A DNA stretch of 57,153 bases, taken from positions 1-57,153 of the forward strand of contig JAQUPB010000003.1 in NCBI GenBank assembly GCA_029004185.1, given 5' to 3'. Source of the DNA: Bacteroidales bacterium (lineage in GTDB: Bacteria > Bacteroidota > Bacteroidia > Bacteroidales > JAHJDW01). The notes beneath the pieces were generated by a model. That model worked only from the letters and a program-made list of their open reading frames with translations, was not told the origin of the DNA and did no database searches. Positions 2,781-44,947 of the stretch are shown here, piece by piece. The translations under genes and the position numbers were made by a program. Each line of letters opens with the position of its first letter. Position 1 is the first letter of the stretch.

Positions 2781-2782
2781 AA

Positions 2783-3277: not shown

Positions 3278-3343
3278 ATAAAATTACATCCTGGTGTTTC
3301 TATGTTCCGGTAAATATTGGGACTGTGTCTTTATAGCGTTTTA

Positions 3344-3436
3344 TTCTTTGCGAAAACCTTTGCGCTCTTTGTGAGAAAAAAATTAAAAAATTTCACGCAA
3401 AGACCGCTAAGACCAAGCGCAAAGTTCGCAAAGAAA
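3344..3436. repeat. imperfect inverted-repeat element (3x CTTTGCG-type units, then 3x CGCAAAG) between convergent genes
   Basis: The left arm TTCTTTGCGAA..CCTTTGCGCT..CTTTGTGAGAAA pairs with the right arm TTTCACGCAAAG..AGCGCAAAG..TTCGCAAAGAAA. It is flanked by the direct repeat CCTGGTG at 3289-3295 and 3450-3456. Confidence 0.6.
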
Positions 3437-3507
3437 ATTTAATTTAATACCTGGTGCTTTTTTGGATTTACATTTTTTTGGCGAATCACCCTGAAAAAAC
3501 TTCTGAA

Positions 3508-28881: not shown

Positions 28882-30300
28882 TTACATATAAAAACTATAT
28901 CTTATTTGTGGCATTTCATTATCAGGAATATATTTAAGAATTTCTCCTACTTTTCTAGCACAATCCAATGTTACTGGATATTTTCTGTCAAATTGTGTGT
29001 TATTCCAATTCATTTTAGTTAATGTCAATATTTCCTCGCAAATTGTTAATGGAGATTCATTATTTTCAAACAATCTTATTTCAATTGGTTGTGGAATATA
29101 CATACCCGTATAGGTTTTATAATATTCTACAGAACCACGAGTATACAACAGGAATCTATTTTTTTCTAACTCCAAACATGTTCCTCTGTATGGAGGATAT
29201 AATCCATCACGAAAAAGCCGAATTTGACTATCTTGAATTGTTAAGAAATCATAAGTTGAAATACCTAACTCTTCAATTACTTTGGTAAAACCTTCAATTT
29301 CCTTTTCATTAAAGTTTGACGATTTATGCAATACCAATCGTGCCGGTAAGTTTTCAACTGCAATTTTATATTCTTTTAGTGCATTTAAAAGTAACTCATA
29401 AGCTTGTTCACTTTCTAAATGTGGGGTTCTGTCAAATTTATCTACAACGACCGGAGAGCCTCTAAGTATAATGCCATTACCTAATTCATTAAATATTTGT
29501 GCCAAACTTGTTTGCATTGTTTGTTTGTCCCTACTTCTATAAAACCCAATACCGACATAACAAACAGAAGGTTTATTTTCATTTTTTAACATTCGCCAGG
29601 GAATACCTTTGGCTTTATAATAAATTGCTGTACATAAATTCCACGCTCTTGTTGCGTCATCTTGAACACCTTTGTTATTTTTCAAACTATGTTCTTTTAT
29701 AATTTGAATAGGAATAGATAAGTGCATTGACTTTGCTTTCAAAGCCCGTCTGAAATCGTGTTCCAAGCTTTCCGTGTCAATATCTTCATCTAATTTATCT
29801 TCTTCTTGTTTTAAACTTTTTTTTGAAATTTTATTTTCAAACGATTTCGGCAATAAACATATAATAACATCAGGATTTTTATTTTGCGATAAGAAACGCA
29901 CTGCTTCATAATACATATCAACAGCTTGGTCAATTCTATCGTCTCTGCTATTTGTTGACAATATCGTATTTAATTCCTTTTTATTAATAGTTTTATTTAA
30001 ACTATCATCTGTTATTAATTTTGAACAAAACCCATTATGTTCGTTAAATCCAGCAAAAGAAACGAATAAGTTTGGTTGTTTTGAATTTTCTTTGGCAATA
30101 ATTGGTGCTTTGCAAATCTCAATCCACTCATTAAAAAGTTCAATATTTTCAGATATTCCAACAACACCAAGCTTAATTTCTTTTGGTTTGGTAATCATTT
30201 CATGGTCAAAAACATTATATTCTTTCATACCTGCACGAGGGCAAATATGATTACCTTTTCCAAATACCATTTGAGGTTCTTCTATAAAATTAAACTTCAT
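28882..30300 (-). CDS. short prokaryotic Argonaute (MID+PIWI only, catalytically inactive)
   Basis: FIEEPQMVFGKG N-terminus. MID pocket string HDFRRALKAKSMHLSIPIQII. AIYYKAKGIPWRM. CYVGIGFY and LVLHKSS occupy positions where active Agos carry catalytic Asp residues. The C-terminus ILTLTKMNWNN...PVTLDCARKVGEIL resembles the Maribacter SPARTA Ago as I remember it. Confidence 0.9.
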   Translation of the reverse strand: MKFNFIEEPQMVFGKGNHICPRAGMKEYNVFDHEMITKPKEIKLGVVGISENIELFNEWIEICKAPIIAKENSKQPNLFVSFAGFNEHNGFCSKLITDDSLNKTINKKELNTILSTNSRDDRIDQAVDMYYEAVRFLSQNKNPDVIICLLPKSFENKISKKSLKQEEDKLDEDIDTESLEHDFRRALKAKSMHLSIPIQIIKEHSLKNNKGVQDDATRAWNLCTAIYYKAKGIPWRMLKNENKPSVCYVGIGFYRSRDKQTMQTSLAQIFNELGNGIILRGSPVVVDKFDRTPHLESEQAYELLLNALKEYKIAVENLPARLVLHKSSNFNEKEIEGFTKVIEELGISTYDFLTIQDSQIRLFRDGLYPPYRGTCLELEKNRFLLYTRGSVEYYKTYTGMYIPQPIEIRLFENNESPLTICEEILTLTKMNWNNTQFDRKYPVTLDCARKVGEILKYIPDNEMPQIRYSFYM

Positions 30301-30301
30301 T

Positions 30302-31681
30302 TTAAAATTTTAGAGTTACTTGAATTTTGTCAGACAATACATTATTAACATCTTCTTTTTCATTCATAGACCAGCTATCATCATTAAGAATTGGGAACGA
30401 ATCGAAATTAACTATATCTCCAAAATCAATAAATTTATATTTATTACTAAATAGGTTATCTTCGTCCTTGTATTGCAAAAAGTGGCTAATAAATTTAACA
30501 TGATTAAACACATGCTGATTTCTTTCATTCCTTTTTAGATACGTTATTTTGTCTTTCTCATTATACAAAGGTTTTTTACCATCAAATGTAAATGCCCAGT
30601 CAGGAACAATACTAATATACCATTTATTCTCAATATCAATAAAAGCAATTTTAAAAGCAAAATGCTTGCAAGTGTAATATGTTTTCTCTTTCCACTCTCT
30701 TGAAGTTTGTTCAAAAACTGTTCGGGTTGCATCCTTTTTGCTGTGCCATTTTGCAACTCTTTTGCTTAAATTTTCATCTGGAGGCATGAACCTAAAATGA
30801 TTATAATTCTTTACCCATTCGACGCCCATTTTATACAATTTTTGTATTAAACAAAATTTAAGTAAAGTTTTGAAAACATTCTTATAATCATCATCAATAG
30901 AATAAAATTCGGATGTTGAAAATTCTTCAATTGTACCTGTATCTACAATATTATGTAATGGAATAGAGCTATTACTTATGTCATGAAAACTAACTATTTT
31001 ATTATTAAAACAAACCCAATCAGAAGAAAATTTTAAATTTTGTTGTTTTAATGCTTCATAAATAACTTCTCTATTAGTAGATTTTTTAAACAACTTTCTC
31101 TCGGAATTAATTGAGTTTTTTATAATTTCTTTCCTGTCTATATTTAAAGCCCCAATGAATATTTTTTGAGCAAAATCAATATTAATTAATGAAGAATATA
31201 ATTTTTCTGTATTTTGTTTTCGCTTTATTTTTTCTTCTTCAAATAATGTTAAAAGTGATTTTTGAATTTCATCTTTCAATTGAAAAGCACTATTAACTTC
31301 TTTCCAAAATTTTCCATCATAGATATTTCCAACTTTATTTGCAAAATCGTTTTGTTTTTGTTCTGTTTTTATTTTTTTTAAATTAAAAACAAGAATTGGT
31401 TTGCCTTCTCTGTCTGCAATAAACCACTCCTTTTCTGTTATTGAAACACCATCATCTAGTTCATACCCATATTTGCCACCCAATAATAAAATATAAACAT
31501 CAGCCTTGATAACTTCATTCAAGCAAACATCAATTGAATTTCTATTTTGGGCAATAAATGTGTTTTCACACATTGAGGGTTTGCAATTAATTTGTTCAAT
31601 GGCAAGCCGAGCAGCTTCTCTTTCATTCGATAAGTCAGAAACTGTTGAACTAACAAATATTATAGGCTTTACATTAAACAT
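30302..31681 (-). CDS. DUF4062 (TIR/deoxyribosyltransferase-like) - APAZ fusion protein, partner of the short pAgo
   Basis: N-terminal strings IIFVSSTVSDLSNEREAA, ADVYILLLGGKYG, SITEKEW and GKPILVF match the DUF4062 consensus. The C-terminal HFAFKIAFIDIENKWYISIVPDWAFTFDG resembles the APAZ core of TIR-APAZ proteins. The stop is 1 nt from the pAgo ATG. Confidence 0.8.
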   Translation of the reverse strand: MFNVKPIIFVSSTVSDLSNEREAARLAIEQINCKPSMCENTFIAQNRNSIDVCLNEVIKADVYILLLGGKYGYELDDGVSITEKEWFIADREGKPILVFNLKKIKTEQKQNDFANKVGNIYDGKFWKEVNSAFQLKDEIQKSLLTLFEEEKIKRKQNTEKLYSSLINIDFAQKIFIGALNIDRKEIIKNSINSERKLFKKSTNREVIYEALKQQNLKFSSDWVCFNNKIVSFHDISNSSIPLHNIVDTGTIEEFSTSEFYSIDDDYKNVFKTLLKFCLIQKLYKMGVEWVKNYNHFRFMPPDENLSKRVAKWHSKKDATRTVFEQTSREWKEKTYYTCKHFAFKIAFIDIENKWYISIVPDWAFTFDGKKPLYNEKDKITYLKRNERNQHVFNHVKFISHFLQYKDEDNLFSNKYKFIDFGDIVNFDSFPILNDDSWSMNEKEDVNNVLSDKIQVTLKF

Positions 31682-31916: not shown

Positions 31917-32336
31917 TTATTTGAATATGTTCTTTCGACTTATTCCCCACATTTCCGTTTGATTTGTTCCGGTGAATATGTATCCAGAACTATATGGACT
32001 TTTTGCCCTTACAATAATTGTATCGTTTATTTGTGATACCTCTTTCTGTACACCTTTCCTATCAAGCCGTAAACTTTCAATATTTTTTTCATATGGCTGT
32101 AACCACCTGCTTATGGTTTCCTCATCAAAACCGAGTAATTGAGCAATCGCCTTATAGGTAAGTCCTTCGAGCCATAATTGCAATGCTTTCGTTACAAAAT
32201 AGGAACTGTTCTTTTTAATTTTAGTTTTATCGGAAAATCGGTAGTTGCAGGCTTTATTCTTGCATTTATATAGTTGCCGGTCATTCCGGATTCCGTGCTT
32301 TATGATATTTTCAGAATTACAATTAGGACATTTCAT
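31917..32336 (-). CDS. InsA-like zinc-ribbon + HTH DNA-binding protein (IS1-type orfA-like, or a regulator)
   Basis: CPNCNS...YKCKNKACNYRF zinc ribbon followed by the HTH string LTYKAIAQLLGFDEETISRWL. No transposase catalytic ORF follows. Confidence 0.6.
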   Translation of the reverse strand: MKCPNCNSENIIKHGIRNDRQLYKCKNKACNYRFSDKTKIKKNSSYFVTKALQLWLEGLTYKAIAQLLGFDEETISRWLQPYEKNIESLRLDRKGVQKEVSQINDTIIVRAKSPYSSGYIFTGTNQTEMWGISRKNIFK

Positions 32337-32591: not shown

Positions 32592-34307
32592 TTATCCTTT
32601 ACCATTCTGATTAAATTCTGTCATTCCCGTTGTCCTTGCAGCAGCTGTAACTTCACCCCAGCCTGTAAAATAATTCTCAAAATATTTTATCGGAAATTGA
32701 CTGTTTTGTGTAACTTCTTCTTTTGTTGGTATGTGTCCTATCTGTTTGGAAATATTTTTAATTTCAAGTTGCAATGCTTTTTTGCTCACTTCATACTTCT
32801 GTTTTTTCAGTCGTGCAACCCGGCTGTTTTTCGCTTTTGGTTTGTCATCATTGATTTTACGAAAAGGGTCAAGTCCAGAACTTAACTCATTATGTCTCTG
32901 TGATGTGATGTTGTGATAATATTCCGAAAGTTCAATGCCTACAAACCTTCTATTTAATTGCTGTGCCGTCAAAGTTGTCGTGCCTGCTCCATTGAAAGGG
33001 TCTAGCACAAATTCGTTTTCGTTTGTGAATAGAGAAATCAATCTATACATAAACATTGGTGGCAACTGACAAGGGTGGTCAACTCTACGACTGTTGTGTT
33101 TTAAGCGGTGAATGTCCGACCAAACATTTGATGCCATTTCGCTATCTTTTATTTTTAGTCGCTTGCGTTTTGTAATGCAGTTTGCTCTGATACAAAAATT
33201 TTCCGATTGCATCTCAATCGCATTCTTTTCAAAAGACGTGTTTTTACTCCTTACAAGTGCCGGCAATGGTTTTGGTTTTCCTTTGCTAAAACATAAAATG
33301 GAATAATGTGAAGGCATAATCATACGCACTGGCATACTCAATCCTTCCCAAACAATCCAATCCTGATAATCAAGGATTCTGTTTAGATGCTTGAAATGTC
33401 TAACGCACCATTGTGGAATATTTAAAACCGCAAGCGTTCGCCCTGGTCTTAACACCCTTGCAAGTTCGCTTAACCATTGGTCGCACCATTCAAAATATTT
33501 TTGAATATCAATTCCATCATCCCAACTTTCATATTTTTTATTCAAGTTATATGGTGGATCTGCAAAACAAAAATCAATACTGTTATCAGGAATTTTTTTG
33601 AGTTGCCCAATGCAATCTCCATTTAGTAACTTCGATTTTTCAGAATAAATATTTTCTGTTTGCGGGTATTCTCCAAATGAATGTTTTTTATCTATCGGTT
33701 TGAAATATTTTCTCTGGTCATAAACATTTACAAACTTATATTGTGGCAAACCAAATAAATCGCAGAGGCGATTTACAACCCCACTTGGATAGCGTTCAAA
33801 GTCAACTGATATATCACGCCAAACATCTGACATTAAAGTTCCAAATTCGTGGTACAAATGTTTTTTTCCTCCATAATCTTTTGTTGTCTTGTCGCAACAA
33901 GGGCAGTATGTATAACCTATTCTTGTTTTGGTGTGATTTAAACTTTCTTTGTAACGAGTTATAATCAGCAATGCAGAATGACTGTCACTTAAATAATCCT
34001 CACGTTCAATTGGATTTGTAAGTTTAACAGCAATCCAAAGTTTTAAGTATGAATCATTTTTTAGTTGTGTACAAAAGTCATTCGCAAAAATTGGAGAAGT
34101 TAAAATTGCTATTGTAGAACGTTTATCTGTTCTACTTATAAAATCATTAAGTTGATTGAACAGGTTTTTCTTGTTGGGAACTTCTTCAAGCGATTTGTAG
34201 TATGGTAAAATAACAAACTCAACATTTGAAGATGTGGTTTTCACTTCTGCAATGTTGCTTTTTATATTTCGGTCTTTTAGCGATATGGCATTTTCGCTTA
34301 AATGCAT
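32592..34307 (-). CDS. beta-class N6A/N4C DNA methyltransferase with an extra N-terminal half-domain and a C-terminal homing-endonuclease-associated-type repeat
   Basis: Motif IV FADPPYN precedes motif I VLDPFNGAGTT (beta order). The N-terminal ~220 aa repeats the (S/D)VW(R/S)DI region with a degenerate TSPIF. The C-terminus reads IPTKEEV...YFENYFTGWGEVTAAARTTG. Confidence 0.9.
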   Translation of the reverse strand: MHLSENAISLKDRNIKSNIAEVKTTSSNVEFVILPYYKSLEEVPNKKNLFNQLNDFISRTDKRSTIAILTSPIFANDFCTQLKNDSYLKLWIAVKLTNPIEREDYLSDSHSALLIITRYKESLNHTKTRIGYTYCPCCDKTTKDYGGKKHLYHEFGTLMSDVWRDISVDFERYPSGVVNRLCDLFGLPQYKFVNVYDQRKYFKPIDKKHSFGEYPQTENIYSEKSKLLNGDCIGQLKKIPDNSIDFCFADPPYNLNKKYESWDDGIDIQKYFEWCDQWLSELARVLRPGRTLAVLNIPQWCVRHFKHLNRILDYQDWIVWEGLSMPVRMIMPSHYSILCFSKGKPKPLPALVRSKNTSFEKNAIEMQSENFCIRANCITKRKRLKIKDSEMASNVWSDIHRLKHNSRRVDHPCQLPPMFMYRLISLFTNENEFVLDPFNGAGTTTLTAQQLNRRFVGIELSEYYHNITSQRHNELSSGLDPFRKINDDKPKAKNSRVARLKKQKYEVSKKALQLEIKNISKQIGHIPTKEEVTQNSQFPIKYFENYFTGWGEVTAAARTTGMTEFNQNGKG

Positions 34308-34316
34308 TGTTTCGTT

Positions 34317-35330
34317 TTATTTATCTAAACTTAACAAGAATTTAGAAAGTTTATCAAGTTCACTGTCTTTCAATGTTACAGTGCAATCACTGAATTGGCA
34401 AAGAGTTCGTAGCGCTGATACCCGTTCAAAATTTCCCGCTCCGTCAATGATATATGCAATACAATGTCCATGTTTGTGTAATTGCCTCTGTCTATCTTGA
34501 GCTTGCCCTGCTTTACGTTCAATGACGCTATTTGTTGTTACTTGAAAGCATACTTCAATTGCACAATATTTGCCTTCCGGTGATGCTGCAACAATATCGT
34601 ATGAAAGTAATGTTCTTTTGTTCTGACTAATTTTTTGAATTTGTTTCTTTTTAAAATCCCATTTTGGTAATTTGTCTTCTAAATAGTCAACAACATATTT
34701 TTGTGCAAGATTACCAAGAGAATTTGCTGTTGCACCACCCGTAATTCGACTTACCCAAATATATCGCTGCTTAACAAATGTTTCAAGTTCTCTTTTATGT
34801 CCTATCAAAGTTCCAATAGTGCATTTCTCTTCAATTTCTGATGGTAAATTGTCTGCTAATGCTGCACCCCCAAATAATAGAAGATTAATAATATCTTCAA
34901 TTACTGGATTAAGTTTTTGATTAGTTACAAGTCCAACTCCATCAACTTTCAAATGAGTGTTACTCCAAGTTTTCTTTCCTGATAGTGTTTGAAATTTATA
35001 AGAATGGTTTTTCTCATTCCATACAAACTCCATTGTTTCCTTTTCAAAAAGTTTAGGGAGTTCCTTTTTGAACCGCATAAGTTTTTCACCACCGATGTCA
35101 GAAAGAACCATCAAATGTTTGAGAAATAAATTAGATGAAAGTTCCTTTGTTGTTTCTAAAACCTTCTTCCATGCAAAAGGTTCAGCATTTGCAATATTGA
35201 GTAAGCTGATAAATTTGTCTTGCGTTTCAATAAGTTTTGGAATTATACTCGAATTGCGTTCTGTTTCAGCTATTTTTGGTGGCCAAAATTTAAGTGCATT
35301 AGCCTCTAAGTCGTCAAGTTTTCTTATCAT
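34317..35330 (-). CDS. putative type II restriction endonuclease (cognate of the adjacent methyltransferase)
   Basis: Lies 9 nt upstream of the MTase gene on the same strand. Possible PD-(D/E)xK-like core LSYDIVAAS...YCAIEVCFQ. Assignment rests mainly on context. Confidence 0.5.
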   Translation of the reverse strand: MIRKLDDLEANALKFWPPKIAETERNSSIIPKLIETQDKFISLLNIANAEPFAWKKVLETTKELSSNLFLKHLMVLSDIGGEKLMRFKKELPKLFEKETMEFVWNEKNHSYKFQTLSGKKTWSNTHLKVDGVGLVTNQKLNPVIEDIINLLLFGGAALADNLPSEIEEKCTIGTLIGHKRELETFVKQRYIWVSRITGGATANSLGNLAQKYVVDYLEDKLPKWDFKKKQIQKISQNKRTLLSYDIVAASPEGKYCAIEVCFQVTTNSVIERKAGQAQDRQRQLHKHGHCIAYIIDGAGNFERVSALRTLCQFSDCTVTLKDSELDKLSKFLLSLDK

Positions 35331-35585: not shown

Positions 35586-36416
35586 CTATCCCTCCCAAAT
35601 TATACTTAAAATAGATTTTGTTCCGAAAACACAGTGTTCATTAAATTTTCTGCGTGTGTGGCTTTCAAAAACATTATCAAACCAATCAGATGCAAAAACT
35701 TCTTGGGTAGATTTTGATGTAACTTGATTATAAAAATAATCCCCGGCAACTGTATTTTCCGGTATTTTAATTTTACCATGCCTTAATGACCAATATGGAA
35801 AATCTTTGCTATAGCAATACCATGAAATTTTACCACCAACACTATAAACAACCATAATTGGATAATTTCCAATAATTGTAAATCTTATGGCTGTCGCTGT
35901 CAGGCTTACTTGATACTTTTTTGATAATTCACTAATAAGTTGAAAAGAAAATTTCCTTTTTAAGCAGTCGGTTTCAATTTTATTTTGTGGTAATAAAAGA
36001 CATGAAGCAAAATAATCTGCCTGTCTTTCTGCATAATTTTTTGAAGAAAAATCCGTAAAGCATGAATGACTTGGCGATAATCCTAACAACAAAGCATTTC
36101 TTTGTTCATCAATAAAAAAATGCCCTAATTCATGTGCAAAAGTAAATCTTGCCCTTTCAGTATATGCGTGTTCTAATCTATCAATGTTTATATAAATGTG
36201 AAAATCTTTATTAAAACACTCAATCATTCCATCAAATGAATCTTTATAGTTACCATAACTATATGAAATATTGTTTTCGCTTGCAATAACTTCAGGATTA
36301 ACGGCTCCATTATAGAAATAATAATTAGCGATACCCTCTGCTAACTCAGATAATATAAGTTTATCGGAATTTGTCAGAAAATTATTGTTTGTTTTTTGAC
36401 TGCTCTCTATCATCAT
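35586..36416 (-). CDS. ImmA/IrrE-family zinc metallopeptidase (DUF955) with a C-terminal extension
   Basis: RARFTFAHELGHFF (HExxH) and downstream ERQADYFASCLLLP. About 110 aa of extra C-terminal domain. Confidence 0.85.
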   Translation of the reverse strand: MMIESSQKTNNNFLTNSDKLILSELAEGIANYYFYNGAVNPEVIASENNISYSYGNYKDSFDGMIECFNKDFHIYINIDRLEHAYTERARFTFAHELGHFFIDEQRNALLLGLSPSHSCFTDFSSKNYAERQADYFASCLLLPQNKIETDCLKRKFSFQLISELSKKYQVSLTATAIRFTIIGNYPIMVVYSVGGKISWYCYSKDFPYWSLRHGKIKIPENTVAGDYFYNQVTSKSTQEVFASDWFDNVFESHTRRKFNEHCVFGTKSILSIIWEG

Positions 36417-36693
36417 TCATTTTTTTTCTTATTTCATCAGTAATAGCTTTTCCTTCACGTGCAGCCATTGATAAATTTTTTGTACTTTCAGTTGTGAGAT
36501 TTAAATTACTAATCTCAAGTTTTTTTATTTTACCTCTTTTGATAATGTTTATAGGGTTGTCCCAGTCTTCAGGAGTTTCTTTGTTAATGTCATTTGATTT
36601 TTCAAAAATTAAAATTTCATCTGCATTAGTAGGAAGCAATAATCCATTAGACTTAAACAATTCGCCTAAACTTATTTTCTTATCCTTTTGCAT
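36382..36693 (-). CDS. small hypothetical protein between the sigma factor and peptidase genes (candidate anti-sigma or peptidase substrate)
   Basis: 103-aa ORF overlapping the sigma-gene stop by 14 nt and the peptidase start by 35 nt, suggesting translational coupling. No motif recognised. Confidence 0.5.
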   Translation of the reverse strand: MQKDKKISLGELFKSNGLLLPTNADEILIFEKSNDINKETPEDWDNPINIIKRGKIKKLEISNLNLTTESTKNLSMAAREGKAITDEIRKKMNDDREQSKNKQ

Positions 36694-37333
36694 ATTTTAT
36701 AGATTTTAATTGTGAATATTTTGAAAAATATTCAATAATTTTTTTCTCGGATCGCACTTTAATTTGGCGTATATTTTCTTTTGTTATTCCAAAATAATTA
36801 CATAAATTATTTAGCACTTTAGAGGGTGTTTTTTTACCATCTTCTTGATATAAGTACAAAAAGCGTAAAACATCTCTATCTCTTTCGGGTAATGAATCAA
36901 GTGCATTTTTTAATATTTTAGCGTTTATGCTTTCTATATTTATATTATCTTTTTCTGCATCTATATATGTTTCAATAAAAACCGGTTCATTATTATCTGA
37001 TGTTTTTATATTAAGAATTTTAAAATCTTGAAGTAAGTCTTGAAGTTCATTTTTGGCAATTTGTAAAATCCAACCTTTAAATGCGTTGTCTGTGTTTTTT
37101 TGGGAATTATCAGGGGTTGTAAATAAAGGATTTTCATAAATAGCAAGAAAAGTATTATTTACAATTGCATTTAAAAATTGTTTATCGCGAATACCAAAGT
37201 TATTTTTTAAAACCGAATAAAGTAATTTGCTATATTCTTTGTATAAAATATTAAATGCAGATTCAGCATTTTTTATATTTTCTTCTTTATATGAAATAGA
37301 CAATAATAGTTCTTCTAATTTTTCTACTTCCAT
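36680..37333 (-). CDS. ECF-like sigma-70 family factor
   Basis: Region-2-like FNILYKEYSKLLY and FKGWILQIAKNELQD. Region-4-like LDSLPERDRDVLRFLYL...LCNYFGITKENIRQIKVRSEKKI. Confidence 0.7.
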   Translation of the reverse strand: MEVEKLEELLLSISYKEENIKNAESAFNILYKEYSKLLYSVLKNNFGIRDKQFLNAIVNNTFLAIYENPLFTTPDNSQKNTDNAFKGWILQIAKNELQDLLQDFKILNIKTSDNNEPVFIETYIDAEKDNINIESINAKILKNALDSLPERDRDVLRFLYLYQEDGKKTPSKVLNNLCNYFGITKENIRQIKVRSEKKIIEYFSKYSQLKSIKYAKG

Positions 37334-37352
37334 AATTGTAAAACTAAATTCC

Positions 37353-37383
37353 GTGACAAAGTTAAAAAAAATCTATCTGTCAC
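37353..37383. promoter_or_regulatory. inverted repeat GTGACA-N19-TGTCAC in the divergent promoter region
   Basis: Sits in the 93-nt gap between the sigma gene (start 37333) and the multiubiquitin gene (start 37427). Confidence 0.35.
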
Positions 37384-37426
37384 ACTTTTTAGTTTTATAA
37401 GTATTATTAATTTAATTTATATTATT

Positions 37427-37903
37427 ATGAAACAAAATTTACACAATGAAAAACTGCCTGCCTTGAAATTAATAATTGATGGCAAGCATTATGAATGGCA
37501 TCAGCAATATATTACAGGTGCCGAAGTTAGAAGATTAGGTAACATTCCCCGTGAGGATGAAATCTTTCTTAAAATTAAAGAACCTTGGGAAGATGAACCA
37601 ATAAGTGATGATACCAATGTTGATTTAGCCCGCCCCGGAATAGAACATTTTTTTTCTAAAGTGAAATTCCCTATTACAATTATTGTAAACGGTAGAGAAA
37701 AATCTTGGGGCGAAGAAAAAATTTCATACGAACAAGTTGTAAAACTTGCATTTGAAAACTACGTTGAAAATGCTGCTACTGCCTATACTGTAACGTATGA
37801 CAAAGGGCCTAGGCAAAACCCTGAAGGAACTATGGTTAAAGGTGATAACGTTTTTGTAAAAAATAAAATGAGATTCAATGTTACAGCAACTAATCAATCA
37901 TAG
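37427..37903 (+). CDS. multiubiquitin-type protein (two tandem beta-grasp Ubl domains)
   Basis: Two repeats of the pattern (I/V)I(I/V)(D/N)G+..W....I(T/S)..(E/Q)V..L(G/A): LIIDGKHYEWHQQYITGAEVRRLG and IIVNGREKSWGEEKISYEQVVKLA. C-terminus KNKMRFNVTATNQS. Confidence 0.75.
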   Translation: MKQNLHNEKLPALKLIIDGKHYEWHQQYITGAEVRRLGNIPREDEIFLKIKEPWEDEPISDDTNVDLARPGIEHFFSKVKFPITIIVNGREKSWGEEKISYEQVVKLAFENYVENAATAYTVTYDKGPRQNPEGTMVKGDNVFVKNKMRFNVTATNQS

Positions 37904-39059
37904 TCCTGATTTGAAGCAACTCAGGGATGAAGGGTATGAAATCGAGTATAGTGGTGGATATTTACTTATCCACCACATACCTTATGTAAACAACAATAAA
38001 GAAATAAAACATGGTACATTGGTAAGTGAGCTTACATTAGTTAGTAATACTAAAACAGCTGCACCGGCTAATCATGTTATTTATTTTATAGGGGAACACC
38101 CATGTAACAAGGACGGTAGTATTATTACTTCGATAAAACATACCAGCCAAAATAAAATATTGCATGAGGGAGTTATTATAAATCATTCCTTTTCGAATAA
38201 ACCGGCAAATGGTTATGCTAACTATTATTTTAAAGTTTCGAGGTATGCTGATATTATTTCGGCACAAGCAAAGGCTTTGGATAATAGCGTTACAGAAAAG
38301 ACCTTTAAAGTAGTACACGATAATAAAGAAGATTCGGTATTTCAATATCCTGACACCAATTCAAGTAGAGCAAACATTAATTTAATAAATTCTAAATTTA
38401 ACGAACAAAAGATTGCCATAATTGGATTAGGGGGTACAGGTGCTTATATTTTAGATTTAGTAGCTAAAACTCCAGTACAAGAAATACACTTGTTTGACGG
38501 TGATGTTTTTTTTCAACATAATGCTTTTCGCTCACCGGGTGCGGCTTCAAATGAGCAATTAGACAGAATAATGAAAAAAGTAATTTATTACTCTGAAATA
38601 TATTCTAAAATGCACAAAAATATTATTCCACATATTGAATATATAACAGATGATAATATTAATTGCTTGGATCAAATGTCTTTTGTATTTATATGCGTTG
38701 ATAAAAATAGTGCAAGAAAAATCATTATCGATAATCTTTTAAAAACAAATGTACCTTTTATTGATGTTGGGCTTGGTGTAAATGTTGTTGATGATAAATT
38801 AATAGGAACTTTAAGGGTTACAAATGGTAGCTCTATTAAAAATGACCATTTAATTAATAGAGTTCCAATGGAAGAAAACGATGTTATTAATGAATACGCA
38901 ACCAATATTCAAATAGCCGATTTGAATTCTTTTAATGCATCATTAGCAGTAATTAAATGGAAAAAAATAATCGGATTTTATCAAGATTTAAATAAAGAGT
39001 ATCATTGTTCATATTCAATTAATAATTCTAATTTTATTAATGAAGACATTACGGCATAA
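37878..39059 (+). CDS. ThiF/E1-like adenylyltransferase with an uncharacterised N-terminal domain
   Basis: Rossmann string KIAIIGLGGTGAYILDLVAKT...HLFDGDVFFQHNAFRSPG. Overlaps the Ubl gene by 26 nt. The N-terminal ~170 aa (YLLIHHIPYV...) is unassigned. Confidence 0.85.
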   Translation: MLQQLINHSPDLKQLRDEGYEIEYSGGYLLIHHIPYVNNNKEIKHGTLVSELTLVSNTKTAAPANHVIYFIGEHPCNKDGSIITSIKHTSQNKILHEGVIINHSFSNKPANGYANYYFKVSRYADIISAQAKALDNSVTEKTFKVVHDNKEDSVFQYPDTNSSRANINLINSKFNEQKIAIIGLGGTGAYILDLVAKTPVQEIHLFDGDVFFQHNAFRSPGAASNEQLDRIMKKVIYYSEIYSKMHKNIIPHIEYITDDNINCLDQMSFVFICVDKNSARKIIIDNLLKTNVPFIDVGLGVNVVDDKLIGTLRVTNGSSIKNDHLINRVPMEENDVINEYATNIQIADLNSFNASLAVIKWKKIIGFYQDLNKEYHCSYSINNSNFINEDITA

Positions 39060-39399
39060 ATTTGTTGAGTTGATTCCCGAAAAATTGGAGGATGGTGTTT
39101 TATACATTTCACTTGAATATTGTACAGCCATACACAAATGTGTGTGTGGCTGTGGCAATGAAGTAGTAACTCCAATTTCGCCAACAGATTGGCAAATTTC
39201 TTTTGATGGAAAAACGATTTCCCTATATCCGTCTATTGGCAATTGGAATTTTAATTGTAAATCTCATTATTGGATTATTAATAATAAAATTAAAAATGCC
39301 AGAAAATGGTCAGAAAAAGAAATTAATTCGGGCAGAAAATCAGATAATAAAAAGAAAAATAAATATTACAAGAAGAAACCTTGGTATATTATTTTCTGA
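39040..39399 (+). CDS. DUF6527-like small protein (metal-binding-like CxCGC...CxxH signature, candidate E2/E3-like component)
   Basis: FVELIPEKLEDGVLYISLEYCTAIHKCVCGCGNEVVTPI...LYPSIGNWNFNCKSHYWI. Overlaps the E1 gene by 20 nt. Confidence 0.7.
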   Translation: MKTLRHKFVELIPEKLEDGVLYISLEYCTAIHKCVCGCGNEVVTPISPTDWQISFDGKTISLYPSIGNWNFNCKSHYWIINNKIKNARKWSEKEINSGRKSDNKKKNKYYKKKPWYIIF

Positions 39400-41443: not shown

Positions 41444-42667
41444 TTATTCTTTTATAAACTTGGCAACTTTTACTCCATCTGAATTAAAAACTTTTATAAA
41501 ATAAATCCCGCTTGGCAAGCCGCCAACATTAATTTCTGTTTTATCGGTAAGCCGACAGATTTGCTGTTTTATTACTTCCTCTCCAGTAATATTAAAAACA
41601 GATAAAGTGCTTTCATTTATTAATTGCGATGTTTCTATTGTTATTGTTGTGTTTGCAGGATTCGGATATATTTTCATAGTTTCTTCCCTGCTTTCCTCTG
41701 CAACCCATACAACACCTCCATTTGTGGTTTTTATAATTGTACCGCTAACACCCACAGCATAACCTATATCAGAGTTAGTAAAAAAAACGGAAGTTAACGT
41801 TTCATATCCCACTGTTTCAGATATCCAGTCAACACCTCCATTTGTGGTTTTTATAATTTCATTAGTCCGTAATCCATATACTTTGGTTTCCATTGCACCG
41901 CCTACTGCATATCCTATGCTTTCATTTGTAAAATAAACGGAAGATAATGGTAAATATATATTTTCTGTTTGAATTGTCCAGTTATAGCCTTCGTTTGTTG
42001 TTTTTAGAATTGTACCATTATCGCCTACAGTATATCCTGTATTTGCATTAGTAAAGAAAACAGAATTTAATTGAACTGGTGCTCCACCTATTATCCAAAT
42101 CCATTCAGTGCCGCCATTCGTGGTTTTTAGAATTATACCACCAGCTAATTCACCACCAACAACATATCCTATATTTGTATCAATAAAGAAAACAGAATTT
42201 AAACAAACAATTGTTCCGCTTGTTTGTTTTATCCAGTTAGTGCCGCCATCTGTAGTTTTTACGATCATACCACTATCGCCTACAGCATATCCTGTATCTT
42301 GGGTTGGAAAGTAAACGGAATTTAATTGCTTCGTTGTTCCACTAGTTTGTTGTATCCAATTAATGCCACCGTTTGTGGTTTTTAAAATCGTGCCACTATC
42401 ACCCACAGAATACCCCGTATCTTGAACGGGAAAATAAATGGAATTTAGCCATTTTGTTGTTTCGCCTGTTTGTGGGGTCCAATTAGTACCACCATTTGTG
42501 GTTTTTAAGACAACACCATCACCGCCTACAGCATAACCTGTATTAAGAGCGGAAAAGTAAACAGACATTAAAGGAACAATTGTGCCGCTTACTTGTTGTG
42601 TCCATTGTGCATATGATGTTATATTAAACGATAAAAGGCATACAATAGTAAATGTTATTTTTTTCAT
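41444..42667 (-). CDS. T9SS-secreted BNR/Ycf48-like repeat protein
   Basis: Signal peptide. Repeated KTTNGG(T/I)NW...SV(Y/F)F units. C-terminal IYPNPANTTITIE...GIYFIKV sorting domain. Confidence 0.85.
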   Translation of the reverse strand: MKKITFTIVCLLSFNITSYAQWTQQVSGTIVPLMSVYFSALNTGYAVGGDGVVLKTTNGGTNWTPQTGETTKWLNSIYFPVQDTGYSVGDSGTILKTTNGGINWIQQTSGTTKQLNSVYFPTQDTGYAVGDSGMIVKTTDGGTNWIKQTSGTIVCLNSVFFIDTNIGYVVGGELAGGIILKTTNGGTEWIWIIGGAPVQLNSVFFTNANTGYTVGDNGTILKTTNEGYNWTIQTENIYLPLSSVYFTNESIGYAVGGAMETKVYGLRTNEIIKTTNGGVDWISETVGYETLTSVFFTNSDIGYAVGVSGTIIKTTNGGVVWVAEESREETMKIYPNPANTTITIETSQLINESTLSVFNITGEEVIKQQICRLTDKTEINVGGLPSGIYFIKVFNSDGVKVAKFIKE

Positions 42668-42705
42668 TAGTTTGTTTTTTTAATAAAGCGAAACTTATCA
42701 ATTTG

Positions 42706-43503
42706 CTATTCTTTAAATATTTTCTCAATATAAACAGCTTTGTTACTAATAATCCTCACAAAGTACATACCACTTGGCAATCTGCTCACATCAAGTTCTA
42801 TTTTTGTCTGTATAATTTGCTGTTTTATTACTTCCTCTCCGGTTATATTAAAAACAGACAAAGTGCTTTTTGTTGTTGTTTGCGGGAGTTCTATTGTTAT
42901 TGTTGTGTTTGCAGGATTAGGAAAAATTGAAAAACTTTTATTAATTTTATAATAGTCCATATTGTTTATTATGCTTCCAGCAATAATTGGATTAATATCA
43001 TAAGCATAATCTTTTATTTTAAACCAAGTTGCATCAATGGCAACATCAATTCTAACCCATCCAAAATATACAATACCATTTGCAATCAATTTAAGACCTA
43101 AACATTTATCTGTCTGTCCTAAAAATGATCCTGAGTTAGAACATGAAGAGAAGCAGCTATTAAAATAATCTGCAAGACATGCATTACCGGAAAGCCATGA
43201 TGTATTATATCCAATACTATCATTGATATTATACGCTTTAACAAATGCACACGTTTCTACCCAGTAAAATGAAACAAAGCAACTATCGTGTAAGCAATTA
43301 ATATAAACAGATTTGCAACAACAACTACTATCACCAATTATTTTAATTTTAAAATCAACAATTCCATCTCCATTTAAATCCGAATCATAATAACCTCCTA
43401 CAGTTGATATTATTGTGTCGGGTACTATATCAACATATATTATAGTTGCGTTTATTGCATTTATTGCAAACAATGCAATCAATAATATGTATAATTTTTT
43501 CAT
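42706..43503 (-). CDS. T9SS-secreted protein, unknown function
   Basis: Signal peptide MKKLYILLIALFAINAINA. Its CTD IFPNPANTTITIE...LSVFNITGEEVIKQQI is almost identical to the CTD of the upstream gene. Confidence 0.75.
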   Translation of the reverse strand: MKKLYILLIALFAINAINATIIYVDIVPDTIISTVGGYYDSDLNGDGIVDFKIKIIGDSSCCCKSVYINCLHDSCFVSFYWVETCAFVKAYNINDSIGYNTSWLSGNACLADYFNSCFSSCSNSGSFLGQTDKCLGLKLIANGIVYFGWVRIDVAIDATWFKIKDYAYDINPIIAGSIINNMDYYKINKSFSIFPNPANTTITIELPQTTTKSTLSVFNITGEEVIKQQIIQTKIELDVSRLPSGMYFVRIISNKAVYIEKIFKE

Positions 43504-43553
43504 ATTAAAAGCTTTATTTTATTACTACTTTTTTACCTTAAACTTGAACTTCT

Positions 43554-44783
43554 TTATTTCTTCACAAACCTTTTAACCTCTATCATTTTATCATCGTAAA
43601 GTTTTATGAAATATATTCCTTTATCCATGGCTGAAATATTAATTGTTGATTTCTTTTCTATAATTCCCCTATATAGAGTTTGGCCAACAATATTTAATAT
43701 TTCAAACTTTTGTCTTTCATTTGAATTATACGTTTCTATTATTAATCTGTTAGTAGCTGGGTTGGGATATATTTTTATTTCCCACTTTATTTCTTTTTCA
43801 TTAATTCCATTGCAATCTTTAACCAAAACAACTACCGTATCTGTTGTGATGCTTGAATAAATTGTATCTATTGCAGTGCCTGTGTAAACAGTATCTGCAA
43901 AGCTTACCGTAAGAACATAAGTAGTGGTAACTGTTGGGAATGCTTTTGGCTTTGCTGTGTTCGCATTATCTATTCCAGTTACAGGTGACCACTGGTATCT
44001 ACAAAAACTTAAATTATGCGTTCCCAACAGAACGGTATCCTTATCTATACACATTGTGGTATCTTTGCCTGCATTTGCTGTAATATCATATGCTGACACA
44101 TCATCTATGTAATAATATGCCGATGCACTAAGCCATGCTCCTGCATTCACAAGCAAGGTATCCGACAAGCTATCTGTTTTGAAATTTCCTATTGTTATAT
44201 ATTGCTCTCCTCCGTGTGCTTTATATATACCACTTATTTTTACCCAATTTACAGTATCAGTTAATTTGTTTTCTTCTGTATTTTTAATTTGAGTAAATAG
44301 AGGTAAAACATCGTAGGAGTTTTCATGGATAAGAGTATCAGATATATGCGCTCCTATTGAACTTATCGCATATTCAGATTTGTCAGCCAAATTCACATAA
44401 AAACGTATGTAATAATATTTATTTATTTGTAAATTATTTGCAAATTTTGTTTCAATATACTCACGAACATTTTTCTGCGTTTTCATAAAGGGGATACCAT
44501 AAAATCCAGCAAAACAAATGCCTGTTTTAGGTATTTGATAACCACAAATTGAATTTGGTGTGCTTTGATTTCCTATGCAATTTCCATTAAAATAATCCGC
44601 TGGTAAAAGATAATTTGGTATCGGACTTATCCAATATTTTGCATATTCAATTTGTCCATGTGCAAATGGGCATTTAACAGAATCCTCAAAACTCCAATTA
44701 TTAATTAAATTATAATTTTGGTTCTGTGCTCTTAATAATACACTTGAAATAATAAATAATATCAATAAAATTAATTTTTGCAT
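43554..44783 (-). CDS. T9SS-secreted protein, unknown function
   Basis: Signal peptide MQKLILLILFIISSVLLRAQ. C-terminal IYPNPATNRLIIE...GIYFIKLY. Confidence 0.75.
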   Translation of the reverse strand: MQKLILLILFIISSVLLRAQNQNYNLINNWSFEDSVKCPFAHGQIEYAKYWISPIPNYLLPADYFNGNCIGNQSTPNSICGYQIPKTGICFAGFYGIPFMKTQKNVREYIETKFANNLQINKYYYIRFYVNLADKSEYAISSIGAHISDTLIHENSYDVLPLFTQIKNTEENKLTDTVNWVKISGIYKAHGGEQYITIGNFKTDSLSDTLLVNAGAWLSASAYYYIDDVSAYDITANAGKDTTMCIDKDTVLLGTHNLSFCRYQWSPVTGIDNANTAKPKAFPTVTTTYVLTVSFADTVYTGTAIDTIYSSITTDTVVVLVKDCNGINEKEIKWEIKIYPNPATNRLIIETYNSNERQKFEILNIVGQTLYRGIIEKKSTINISAMDKGIYFIKLYDDKMIEVKRFVKK

Positions 44784-44947
44784 TTGCTTTTTTCAATTTT
44801 GCAAATTTATTTTAATTTTTGTTTGTTCCATATTATAAAAGACAATATTTTACTCTATTCTGTTGCAATGAATAAAAAAAACTGCCCATATATTAACAAA
44901 ATATATAAGCAGCTTTATAATTCAATTTAAAAGCATTAACTTAAATT

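What the first reader, a model, noticed from the sequence alone, without database searches (positions are those of the whole stretch)
35586..39399. Ubiquitin-like conjugation operon (multiubiquitin / E1 / DUF6527-like) paired divergently with an ECF-sigma / small protein / ImmA-peptidase module
The plus-strand arm has three overlapping genes (overlaps of 26 and 20 nt). They are a two-beta-grasp multiubiquitin protein, a ThiF/E1 adenylyltransferase with an unassigned ~170-aa N-terminal domain, and a 119-aa DUF6527-like protein with a CxCGC...CxxH signature. This resembles the bacterial ubiquitination-like (Bub/Bil-type) antiphage operons as I remember them. I see no JAB or serine-protease deconjugase in it. 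The minus-strand arm also has three overlapping genes: an ECF-like sigma factor, a 103-aa unknown and a 276-aa ImmA/IrrE HExxH peptidase with a C-terminal extension. ImmA-type peptidases paired with an HTH repressor (CapH/CapP-type) are known to switch on defence operons by cleaving the repressor. Here the partner is a sigma factor plus a small protein. I infer a positive-control variant in which the peptidase destroys an anti-sigma and the freed sigma transcribes the Ubl operon. Alternatively the metallopeptidase is the missing deconjugase or Ubl-processing enzyme.
Basis: partly seen in the sequence, partly recalled or inferred. Interest (0 to 1): 0.8.

Follow-up and report, generated by a model that had tools for sequence, protein, structure and literature searches.

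The report
Sigma-switch regulator beside a Bub operon
A known type of bacterial ubiquitin-like (Type II Bub) operon sits in a defence island next to an unstudied three-gene regulator: a sigma factor, a small CapH-like protein with no detectable DNA-binding domain, and a CapP protease that probably switches the operon on by releasing the sigma factor.

Summary
The plus arm is a textbook Type II Bub (formerly 6E.2) operon. It encodes BubA (two beta-grasp domains), BubBD and BubE. BubE (DUF6527) is the Ser-His protease, so a deconjugase is present. The minus arm encodes a true CapP (full-length PADLOC match; homologous to PDB 7T5T) and a real sigma-70/ECF-type sigma factor. Between them lies a 103-aa member of a roughly 180-cluster family that matches PADLOC's capH model but shows no detectable HTH. 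In 25 other distinct loci, all Bacteroidota where named, the gene order is always sigma, small protein, CapP. This triad faces diverse cargo: Type I and II Bub, Bil-like, CBASS, Pycsar and YegP-led operons. Close relatives of this Bub operon instead carry canonical CapH+CapP, a CapH-CapP fusion, or no such regulator. The intergenic DNA holds two outward-facing copies of a conserved element (TGTCACRSTT-N5-TWTW), separated by a variable spacer. The best explanation is a positive-control variant of CapH/CapP, in which CapP cleaves an anti-sigma, probably at the invariant Ala78-Arg79. This step is inferred and untested. Lau et al. 2022 mention the sigma association in one sentence only.

The parts
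35586..36416 (-). capP: ImmA/IrrE-type Zn metallopeptidase (M78 domain plus C-terminal domain), 276 aa
   Evidence: PADLOC capP 8.2e-63 over residues 23-275. Pfam Peptidase_M78 5e-12. Homologous to the CapP structure 7T5T over residues 87-263, E 1.2e-8. H95, E96, H99 and E130 are invariant in 24 triad CapPs, while Cys119 is not conserved.
36382..36693 (-). 103-aa CapH-like small protein with no detectable HTH; candidate anti-sigma and CapP substrate
   Evidence: The family has 177 50%-identity clusters of about 95-125 aa. A78 and R79 are invariant, within the motif NLAxAAREGKxI..KKMxxDR. 78 of 95 members match PADLOC capH only weakly. None of the 95 has a Pfam HTH. The AF2 model has pLDDT 80.8 but pTM 0.37, with five short helices and no compact fold. 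There is no Foldseek hit in the PDB. hhalign against a canonical CapH gives probability 0.2%. Mean net charge of the family is -2.1.
36680..37333 (-). sigma-70-family (ECF-like) sigma factor, 217 aa
   Evidence: NCBIfam TIGR02937 5e-13, 49 bits against a cutoff of 42.9, covering residues 26-202. Pfam Sigma70_r4 6e-5 and Sigma70_r2 0.03, both below gathering score. The AF2 model has pLDDT 74. All top 50 Foldseek PDB hits are sigma factors, many of them ECF sigma/anti-sigma complexes.
37332..37404 (.). control region: inverted pair of 27-nt arms (37332-37358 and 37378-37404) with cores GTGACA 37353-37358 and TGTCAC 37378-37383
   Evidence: Inverted repeat I1, 78% complementary, 19 nt between the arms. 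These are the only two TGTCACRSWW sites in the 57-kb window. The same outward-facing arms (TGTCAC[GA][CG]TT-N5-T[TA]T[TA]) occur between sigma and cargo in 19 related loci by the scripted search, with spacers of 8-31 bp, and by eye in L014, L037, L056, L036 and L131, L129 (L131 spacer 23 bp).
37427..37903 (+). bubA: ubiquitin-like protein with two beta-grasp (Multi_ubiq) domains, 158 aa
   Evidence: Pfam Multi_ubiq 1.3e-30 in two stretches. The C-terminus ...VTATNQS is conserved in Bacteroidota Type II BubA proteins.
37878..39059 (+). bubBD: E2 (DUF6791) fused to E1 (ThiF) adenylyltransferase, 393 aa
   Evidence: Pfam DUF6791 over residues 10-160 at 3e-57, and ThiF over 173-298. NCBIfam NF004805 1e-178 over the full length. 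At least 7985 homologues. S106, R218 and Y340 are invariant and the crossover region contains no Cys. These correspond to S106, R219 and Y342 of E. coli BubBD.
39040..39399 (+). bubE: DUF6527 Ser-His protease with a C4 zinc finger and a Lys-rich/hydrophobic C-terminal tail, 119 aa
   Evidence: Pfam DUF6527 2e-24. C34, C36, C38, C73, S65 and H76 are invariant in an alignment with five other BubE proteins. The pattern matches the C57/C59/C61/C99 plus S92/H102 arrangement of Citrobacter BubE.

Best explanation
The locus has two parts.

[quoted passage not shown] BubBD adenylates the two-beta-grasp Ubl BubA. It passes BubA through oxyester intermediates on the crossover-loop Tyr340 and the E2 Ser106 to targets that are still unknown. 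BubE (DUF6527, Ser65/His76) removes the conjugates.

(2) The minus arm is a portable regulatory triad that stands in for the usual CapH+CapP pair. The small protein descends from, or mimics, CapH. It has lost the DNA-binding helix-turn-helix and instead holds the co-encoded sigma factor inactive, acting as an anti-sigma. On DNA damage or phage infection, single-stranded DNA activates CapP. CapP cuts the small protein, most likely at the invariant Ala78|Arg79. The freed sigma then directs RNA polymerase to the two outward-facing TGTCACRSTT-N5-TWTW elements, driving both its own operon (positive feedback) and the Bub operon.

Shown here: the identity of all six proteins, conservation of the catalytic residues, strict triad synteny, the variety of cargo, and the conserved cis element.

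Inferred: sigma binding by the small protein, its cleavage by CapP, ssDNA activation (carried over from characterised CapP), and sigma dependence of the promoters.
For: Bub identity rests, read against the definitions and mutational data of Ye et al..

CapP identity rests. Sigma identity rests.

The small protein has no detectable HTH and no compact fold. It is acidic. It shows no profile similarity to a canonical CapH, which does hit HTH models. It does keep an invariant x|Arg site, like the F82|R83 CapP cleavage site in CapH.

The order sigma, small protein, CapP is strict, with overlapping or abutting ORFs, in the window and in 25 other distinct loci wherever the flank is present. Those loci are 3 metagenome contigs, 20 genomes and 2 plasmids.

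Cargo varies across Bub I, Bub II, Bil-like, CBASS, Pycsar and YegP-led operons. Near-identical Bub II operons elsewhere use canonical CapH+CapP, a CapH-CapP fusion, or neither. The triad is therefore an interchangeable regulator, not part of the Ubl chemistry.

The cis element is conserved, directional and duplicated in outward orientation. The spacer between copies varies from 8 to 31 bp. This fits one promoter element per divergent operon better than a fixed dimer operator.

Precedents exist. A protease cleaves an anti-sigma to release an ECF sigma in the CalpL/CalpT/CalpS system. The ECF sigma/anti-sigma pair DdvS/DdvA controls a CBASS-CRISPR island.
Against: No interaction, cleavage or transcription data exist.

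The two conserved blocks of the cis element lie only 9 bp apart, and no conserved block lies upstream. The element therefore does not look like a canonical -35/-10 pair with a 16-18 bp spacer. A palindrome in a promoter is also what a repressor operator looks like.

PADLOC's capH model aligns to the small protein over its full length, so a very degenerate DNA-binding CapH cannot be excluded.

No phage protection by a Bub operon has yet been reported; Ye et al. found none among those they tested.
Confidence: 0.55

Rival explanations
1. The classical CapH/CapP logic is retained. The 103-aa protein is a highly diverged CapH that still binds the palindromic arms as a repressor, and CapP cleavage de-represses transcription. 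The sigma factor is an extra layer. For example, it could be a dedicated sigma that lets horizontally moving cargo be transcribed in any Bacteroidota host. It would not be sequestered by the small protein.
For: The PADLOC capH model matches the small protein over its full length. Patches resemble CapH by eye: L..LR..GY...EE(L/V), FE, and [F/A]R[DE]xGK. The control region contains an inverted repeat. Lau et al. listed these proteins as capH.
Against: None of 95 members has a Pfam HTH hit. AF2 gives no compact domain and Foldseek finds no HTH fold. hhalign against a real CapH gives probability 0.2%. The family is acidic. The half-site spacing varies from 8 to 31 bp, which does not suit a dimeric operator.
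Confidence: 0.2
2. The triad is an autonomous stress or mobile-element module, for example a damage-responsive switch of the island. It lies next to the Bub operon but does not control it.
For: The triad occurs with many unrelated cargos, on plasmids, and next to recombinases. In a Planctomycetota plasmid, a sigma / small-protein / CapP-like set has no obvious divergent cargo.
Against: In every Bacteroidota locus where the flank beyond the sigma gene is held, the triad is immediately divergent from an operon, which is a recognisable defence operon in most. The conserved element is duplicated so that one copy faces the cargo, 35-57 nt from its start codon. The same position is held by canonical CapH+CapP at sister Bub operons.
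Confidence: 0.1
3. The metallopeptidase is the missing Ubl-processing or deconjugating enzyme of the Bub pathway.
For: Type II Bub operons lack a JAB peptidase. BubA here ends in ...TATNQS rather than Gly, so some processing is conceivable.
Against: BubE (DUF6527) is the pathway's protease and is present with an intact Ser/His dyad. The same CapP clade serves CBASS/patatin, CBASS/NUDIX and Pycsar operons, which have no Ubl. It is a full-length CapP. Sister Bub II operons exist with no M78 peptidase at all.
Confidence: 0.03

Closest known systems
Type II Bub (6E.2 / DUF6527) operons (Ye, Gong, Chambers & Corbett, bioRxiv 10.1101/2024.11.21.623953)
   Same: The gene content and order are the same: bubA (Multi_ubiq Ubl), bubBD (E2-E1 fusion), bubE (DUF6527), and no JAB. 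The residues corresponding to the catalytic Ser106, Arg219 and Tyr342 are conserved. BubE has the C4 zinc finger plus the Ser/His dyad. The operon lies in a defence island next to a Cap-type regulator.
   Different: The core differs in nothing essential. BubA has two beta-grasp domains and ends in Ser (...TATNQS) rather than Gly. The adjacent regulator is the sigma triad instead of CapH+CapP, CapW or CapK+CapS.
CapH+CapP damage-responsive regulators (Lau et al. 2022, bioRxiv 10.1101/2022.04.27.489752)
   Same: The CapP is homologous over its full length. The regulator sits divergently upstream of a defence operon. The partner protein is about 100 aa and carries an x|Arg site in a C-terminal helix. 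That paper noted a sigma-70-family gene beside capH/capP in 24 CBASS systems, and CapH/CapP beside 6E systems.
   Different: The partner has no detectable HTH, and a sigma factor is always present. The predicted logic is therefore activation by sigma release rather than de-repression. The cis element is a pair of directional arms with variable spacing rather than a fixed operator. This CapP clade has no conserved cysteine switch.
CalpL-CalpT-CalpS (type III CRISPR SAVED-Lon protease / anti-sigma / ECF sigma)
   Same: It is also a three-part antiviral switch, in which a signal-activated protease cleaves an anti-sigma to release an ECF-like sigma factor.
   Different: The proteins are unrelated: a Lon-SAVED protease activated by cA4, against an M78/GAF CapP presumably activated by ssDNA. 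CalpT is not related to the small protein. This is an analogy of mechanism only, not family membership.
DdvS/DdvA of Myxococcus xanthus (PMC11506125)
   Same: It is an ECF sigma/anti-sigma pair that controls expression of a defence island (CBASS plus CRISPR).
   Different: DdvA is a transmembrane anti-sigma, and no CapP-type protease is involved.
IrrE/DdrO (Deinococcus) and ImmA/ImmR (ICEBs1, phages)
   Same: An M78 metallopeptidase cleaves its partner regulator after DNA damage.
   Different: In those systems the partner is an HTH repressor, and no sigma factor is involved.

Membership tests
Type II Bub operon | Ubl (BubA) with beta-grasp / Multi_ubiq domain(s) | tested here: met
   Pfam PF14452 at 1.3e-30, in two stretches.
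Type II Bub operon | E2-E1 fusion BubBD (DUF6791 + ThiF) with invariant E2 Ser, adenylation Arg and crossover-loop Tyr, and no catalytic Cys | tested here: met
   Searches give the domain architecture. S106, R218 and Y340 are invariant in 120 homologues, and residues 300-345 contain no Cys. These correspond to S106, R219 and Y342 of E. coli BubBD.
Type II Bub operon | BubE (DUF6527) with C4 zinc finger and Ser-His dyad | tested here: met
   PF20137 at 2e-24. C34, C36, C38, C73, S65 and H76 are invariant.
Type II Bub operon | No JAB/JAMM peptidase in the operon | tested here: met
   None of the six proteins has a Prok-JAB hit. Type I-like relatives at other triads do have one.
Type II Bub operon | ATP-dependent Ubl conjugation through oxyester intermediates | not testable with these tools
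   This is a biochemical property. Only conservation of the catalytic residues can be shown here.
CapH+CapP regulator | CapP: M78 Zn-metallopeptidase with HExxH+E and a C-terminal sensor domain | tested here: met
   PADLOC capP at 8e-63 over the full length. The 7T5T alignment spans both domains. H95, E96, H99 and E130 are invariant.
CapH+CapP regulator | CapH: N-terminal XRE-type HTH DNA-binding domain | tested here: not met
   No HTH family hit in the window protein or in 95 relatives. There is no HTH fold. hhalign against a canonical CapH gives 0.2%. The canonical CapH itself hits HTH models.
CapH+CapP regulator | Located upstream of, and divergent from, a defence operon | tested here: met
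   Seen in the window and in the related loci whose upstream flank is held.
CapH+CapP regulator | ssDNA-activated cleavage of the partner at a defined x|Arg bond | not testable with these tools
   The invariant A78-R79 is consistent with F82|R83 in CapH. Cleavage has not been tested.
ECF-type sigma / anti-sigma pair | Sigma factor with sigma2 and sigma4 domains only | tested here: met
   TIGR02937 scores above its cutoff. The AF2 model's top 50 Foldseek PDB hits are all sigma factors, ECF sigmas prominent among them.
ECF-type sigma / anti-sigma pair | Co-transcribed partner that binds and inhibits the sigma factor | not testable with these tools
   The gene lies immediately downstream and overlaps by 14 nt. 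The partner has no anti-sigma domain (ASD) family hit.
ECF-type sigma / anti-sigma pair | Shared promoter motif upstream of the sigma operon (autoregulation) and of its target | tested here: inconclusive
   The same directional element faces both operons in the 19 loci scored by script, and by eye in further ones. Its two blocks are only 9 bp apart, which is not a canonical -35/-10 geometry.

The most novel reading that the evidence does not exclude
In Bacteroidota, the CapH repressor of the CapH/CapP damage switch has been converted into an HTH-less anti-sigma factor. CapP, activated by ssDNA, cuts it at Ala|Arg and releases a dedicated sigma factor. The sigma factor fires a symmetric pair of outward promoters, giving positive feedback together with induction of the defence operon. 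This would be a self-contained, host-independent ON switch that travels with Bub, Bil, CBASS, Pycsar and YegP cargos. It would also be an evolutionary flip from negative to positive control within one regulator family.
Probability: 0.5. Interest if true: 0.7.

Novelty: new variant of a known kind. Interest (0 to 1): 0.55.

Why it matters
How costly or suicidal defence operons are kept silent and then induced is an active question. Three damage-sensing regulator families are characterised (CapW/BrxR, CapH+CapP, CapK+CapS), and all three act by relieving repression. A CapP-driven sigma/anti-sigma version would add positive control with built-in feedback. It could also explain how defence cargo is expressed from promoters the host's own sigma may not read; Bacteroidota have unusual housekeeping promoters.

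The finding gives concrete handles for experiments. One is a roughly 100-aa substrate with an invariant Ala-Arg. Another is a defined 19-bp element. The cargo variety is also useful, because it includes Bub operons whose biological function is still unknown, and an inducible native switch could help reveal that function.

The Bub operon itself is an ordinary member of a large, described family.

Tried and rejected
- A related-loci search with the single sigma protein found no relatives in genome contigs.
- The small-protein alignments A2 and A3 were too variable for pattern-based locus searches. I replaced them with a degenerate DNA pattern for NL[AS]xAAREGK. That pattern also returned unrelated ClpB/ClpC, NtrC-type and Fibrobacter DksA-like proteins, which I filtered out with an HMM.
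- PDB sequence searches with the small protein and with its profile gave nothing meaningful. Foldseek of its model also gave nothing.
- I considered and rejected several readings of the cis element.
  - Reading GTGACA...TGTCAC as the -35/-10 pair of a single promoter fails because the spacer varies from 8 to 31 bp.
  - A sigma-54 -24/-12 reading (TGGCAC-N5-TTGC) fails because the GG is absent, the -12 element is not conserved, and the regulator is a sigma-70-family protein.
  - An E. coli-type TTGACA-N17-TATAAT reading would place the transcription start inside the sigma ORF.
- CapP as the Bub deconjugase is rejected (see rival explanations).
- A cysteine switch in this CapP is rejected because Cys119 is not conserved.

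Full report
**Observation.** On the minus strand they are 35586-36416 (276 aa), 36382-36693 (103 aa) and 36680-37333 (217 aa), with overlaps of 35 and 14 nt. On the plus strand they are 37427-37903 (158 aa), 37878-39059 (393 aa) and 39040-39399 (119 aa), with overlaps of 26 and 20 nt. A 93-bp intergenic region lies between the arms.

**The region is a low-GC (about 0.26-0.35) defence island.** Immediately to the left lie a short pAgo (PADLOC pAgo_I, 4e-186) with a DUF4062-APAZ partner, and a BanI-type restriction-modification pair.

**The plus arm is a Type II Bub operon.**
- The 158-aa protein has two Multi_ubiq stretches (1.3e-30).
- The 393-aa protein is DUF6791 (residues 10-160, 3e-57) plus ThiF. 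It matches NCBIfam NF004805 end to end (1e-178).
- The 119-aa protein is DUF6527 (2e-24).
- Ye et al. (10.1101/2024.11.21.623953) define Type II Bub (formerly 6E.2) as BubA (Ubl), BubBD (E2-E1 fusion) and BubE (DUF6527), with no JAB. In their work the pathway runs through oxyester intermediates on a crossover-loop Tyr and an E2 Ser, and BubE is a Ser-His protease with a C4 zinc finger.
- In an alignment of 120 homologues, S106, R218 and Y340 of the window protein are invariant, and the crossover region has no Cys. These correspond to E. coli BubBD S106, R219 and Y342.
- In BubE, C34, C36, C38, C73, S65 and H76 are invariant.
The "CxCGC...CxxH" signature is the zinc finger plus the catalytic His, and the operon does have its own deconjugase.
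- BubBD has at least 7985 homologues, so this part is an ordinary member of a large, known family.

**The peptidase and the sigma factor.** The 276-aa protein is a full-length CapP:
- PADLOC capP scores 8e-63.
- It is homologous to the CapP crystal structure 7T5T across both the protease and C-terminal domains.
- H95, E96, H99 and E130 are invariant in its clade. The Cys in the would-be cysteine-switch loop is not conserved.

The 217-aa protein is a sigma factor:
- It passes NCBIfam's sigma70-ECF superfamily model (49 bits against a cutoff of 42.9, residues 26-202).
- Its region 2 shows the usual NTF...KAWL..IAKNE pattern.
- Its AF2 model (pLDDT 74) retrieves only sigma factors among the top 50 PDB matches. 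Many of these are ECF sigma/anti-sigma complexes such as sigmaE/RseA, AlgU/MucA, SigW/RsiW, BldN/RsbN and CnrH/CnrY.

**The 103-aa protein is the interesting part.**
- A word-indexed search found only four close relatives. A full HMMER scan of 1.84 billion cluster representatives found 177 clusters, essentially all 95-125 aa long.
- The family has a conserved N-terminal L..LR..GyLFP.TeeEV..FE...P..l.dP..ILkRG, a variable 13-21-residue linker, and a C-terminal NLAmAAREGKeI...KKM..DR. A78 and R79 are invariant in 95 sequences.
- 78 of 95 members hit PADLOC's capH model, but weakly (best 5e-10). None hits any Pfam HTH family.
- A canonical CapH, from a Sinorhizobium pSymA CBASS locus, hits the same PADLOC model at 2.5e-30. 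It also hits several HTH models.
- Profile comparison of the small family with this canonical CapH finds nothing (probability 0.2%).
- The AF2 model has high local confidence (pLDDT 80.8) but pTM 0.37, with five short helices joined by extended segments. It has no Foldseek match in the PDB. This is the behaviour expected of a protein that folds on a partner.
- The family is net acidic.
- By eye, the N-terminus resembles the first two helices of the CapH HTH with the recognition helix missing. "AAREGK" resembles "LFRDMGK" around the mapped CapP cleavage site F82|R83 of CapH. This suggests, without proving, descent from CapH.

**Synteny.**
- Every contig carrying a close homologue has sigma (217-222 aa), small protein (about 103 aa), then CapP (about 275 aa).
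- A degenerate DNA pattern for the C-terminal motif, filtered with a family HMM, recovered 20 Bacteroidota genome loci. The named organisms include Pontibacter, Aequorivita, Fibrella, Larkinella, Kaistella, Maribacter, Winogradskyella and Arsenicibacter, plus Chitinophagaceae, Lewinellaceae and Cyclobacteriaceae MAGs.
- In all 20 the small gene sits between a sigma gene and a capP gene wherever the flank is held.
- Two plasmids add further cases: Chryseobacterium pA2BH1 and Segatella copri.

**Cargo facing the sigma gene is diverse.**
- Type II Bub: the window, L004/5, L036, probably L003.
- Type I-like Bub with JAB-E1: L001, L021, L076, L120.
- A Bil-like set of E1 plus JAB: L027.
- Type II CBASS with Cap2 (a SAVED effector confirmed in L041): L037, L041.
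- Other CBASS: L038; L050 and L063 with Sa_NUDIX; L053 and L128 with patatin.
- Pycsar: L129.
- Operons led by DUF1508/YegP: L010, L014, L025.

**Regulators are interchangeable.** Bub II operons whose BubBD is 63-69% identical to the window's carry a canonical HTH CapH plus CapP (Elizabethkingia, L134), a CapH-CapP fusion (L135), or no such regulator (L133, L136). The triad is therefore a swappable regulator occupying the CapH+CapP slot. It is not part of the Ubl chemistry. That is why the reading "CapP is the missing deconjugase" fails.

**Cis element.**
- The window's 93-bp spacer contains an inverted repeat with 27-nt arms at 37332-37358 and 37378-37404. Its cores are GTGACA and TGTCAC.
- These are the only two TGTCACRSWW sites in the 57-kb window.
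- The same outward-facing arms occur between sigma and cargo in 19 loci by the scripted search, regardless of cargo. The arms show clade-specific core variants such as AATCAC and TTTCAC; TAAC (L129) and CTTCAC (L037) were seen by eye in loci outside those 19.
- When 38 arms are aligned on the core, the conserved element is TGTCAC[GA][CG]TT, then five weakly conserved positions, then T[TA]T[TA]. Nothing is conserved upstream.
- The distance between the two arms varies from 8 to 31 bp. This argues against a single -35/-10 pair and against a fixed-geometry dimer operator. It favours one directional element per divergent transcription unit, which would mean autoregulation of the sigma operon plus control of the cargo.
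- The hexamer resembles ECF -35 motifs such as TGTAAC and TGAAAC (my own knowledge).
- The second block is only 9 bp downstream. The sigma start codon lies 19-30 nt after the hexamer, and the cargo start lies 35-57 nt after it. The -35/-10 assignment is therefore unresolved, and I record it as unexplained.

**Mechanism.** The best-supported model (about 0.55) is a positive-control variant of CapH/CapP.
1. The small protein sequesters the sigma factor.
2. CapP, activated by ssDNA as in characterised CapP (Lau et al.), cuts the small protein, probably at A78|R79.
3. The sigma factor then drives both outward promoters.

Protein identities, synteny, cargo variety and the cis element are shown here. 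Binding, cleavage, the activating signal and sigma dependence are all inferred.

The main rival (about 0.2) keeps repression by a degenerate CapH and treats the sigma factor as an accessory. Minor rivals are an autonomous module (about 0.1) and CapP as a Bub protease (about 0.03).

**Comparison with the literature.**
- Lau et al. 2022 (10.1101/2022.04.27.489752) state in one sentence that capH and capP lie beside a sigma-70-family sigma gene in 24 CBASS systems. They also note CapH/CapP-like genes next to 6E systems.
- Ye et al. report CapH+CapP at 168 of 544 Bub operons.
- Searches for CapP or ImmA/IrrE together with anti-sigma or sigma factor found no study of the triad.
- The closest mechanistic precedents are unrelated in sequence: CalpL/CalpT/CalpS, where a protease cleaves an anti-sigma and releases an ECF sigma, and DdvS/DdvA.

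**Verdict.** The Bub operon is a new member of a known kind. The regulator is a new variant of a known kind. Its existence has been recorded, but the missing HTH, the cargo range, the strict architecture and the cis element have not, as far as the held library shows.

Noticed in passing
window 28882-31681 (-): A short prokaryotic Argonaute (472 aa; PADLOC pAgo_I 4e-186) has an upstream partner of 459 aa. The partner's C-terminal part matches APAZ-type (PNTD1-PNTD2) models. Its N-terminus is DUF4062 (1e-22), not the SIR2 or REase domains of the PADLOC models it matched (nor, from my own knowledge, TIR).
   Followed up: partly
window 32592-35330 (-): A BanI-type Type II restriction-modification pair lies directly next to capP. 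It comprises an N6_N4 methylase of 571 aa and RE_BanI of 337 aa (6e-127). Together with the pAgo genes this makes the region a defence island.
   Followed up: partly
window 37880-37903 (BubA C-terminus); also L004, L036, L133-L136: Type II BubA proteins of Bacteroidota end in a conserved ...VTAT[DN][KQ]S, with Ser rather than Gly as the last residue. The Type I-like BubA proteins found next to the same triad end in Gly (L001, L021, L120). It is unknown whether the Ser terminus is adenylated as it is or is trimmed first.
   Followed up: partly
PADLOC model PDLC04142 (capH); window 36382-36693: The single PADLOC capH model matches both canonical HTH CapH (2.5e-30) and the HTH-less small proteins (down to 5e-10) along its whole length. 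Automated annotation will therefore call these small proteins CapH even though no HTH is detectable.
   Followed up: yes
L132 (Isosphaeraceae plasmid pEP7_04) 3987-5700: A Planctomycetota plasmid has a sigma factor (206 aa), then a 132-aa acidic protein, then an unannotated CapP-like ORF, in the same order as the triad. The first two do not match the Bacteroidota family HMMs. This may be an analogous triad outside Bacteroidota.
   Followed up: partly
L010, L014, L025, L050 (first gene facing the sigma gene): In L010, L014 and L025 a DUF1508/YegP gene is the first gene downstream of the cargo-facing arm, ahead of ThiF-like or unknown genes. In L050 the same start sequence precedes the CBASS genes (by eye, no Pfam scan). 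YegP was also noted as CapK/CapS-associated in PMC13373217.
   Followed up: no
L134 (Elizabethkingia anophelis) 1863-6085: A sister Type II Bub operon has a canonical HTH CapH plus CapP, and a DUF2188 gene lies between the regulator and bubA. Lau et al. also list DUF2188 as CapH/CapP cargo.
   Followed up: no
window 31917-32336 (-): A 139-aa protein has an N-terminal CxxC...CxxC zinc ribbon and an HTH_23/HTH_28 domain. It looks like an IS-type transposase helper and sits between the pAgo and restriction-modification modules. This hints at mobile-element activity in the island.
   Followed up: no
window 41444-52750 (-): A run of genes encodes proteins with Bacteroidota-type C-terminal sorting tails (...IYPNPA..). 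It includes a 2600-aa protein with many repeated domains. This supports a Bacteroidota origin for the window.
   Followed up: no
Genome-contig hits L013-L126: The peptide NL[AS]xAAREGK also occurs in ClpB/ClpC-type chaperones, NtrC-type activators, lipoyl-domain E2 proteins and a Fibrobacter DksA-like protein. None of these matched the small-protein family HMM, so they were set aside as unrelated.
   Followed up: yes
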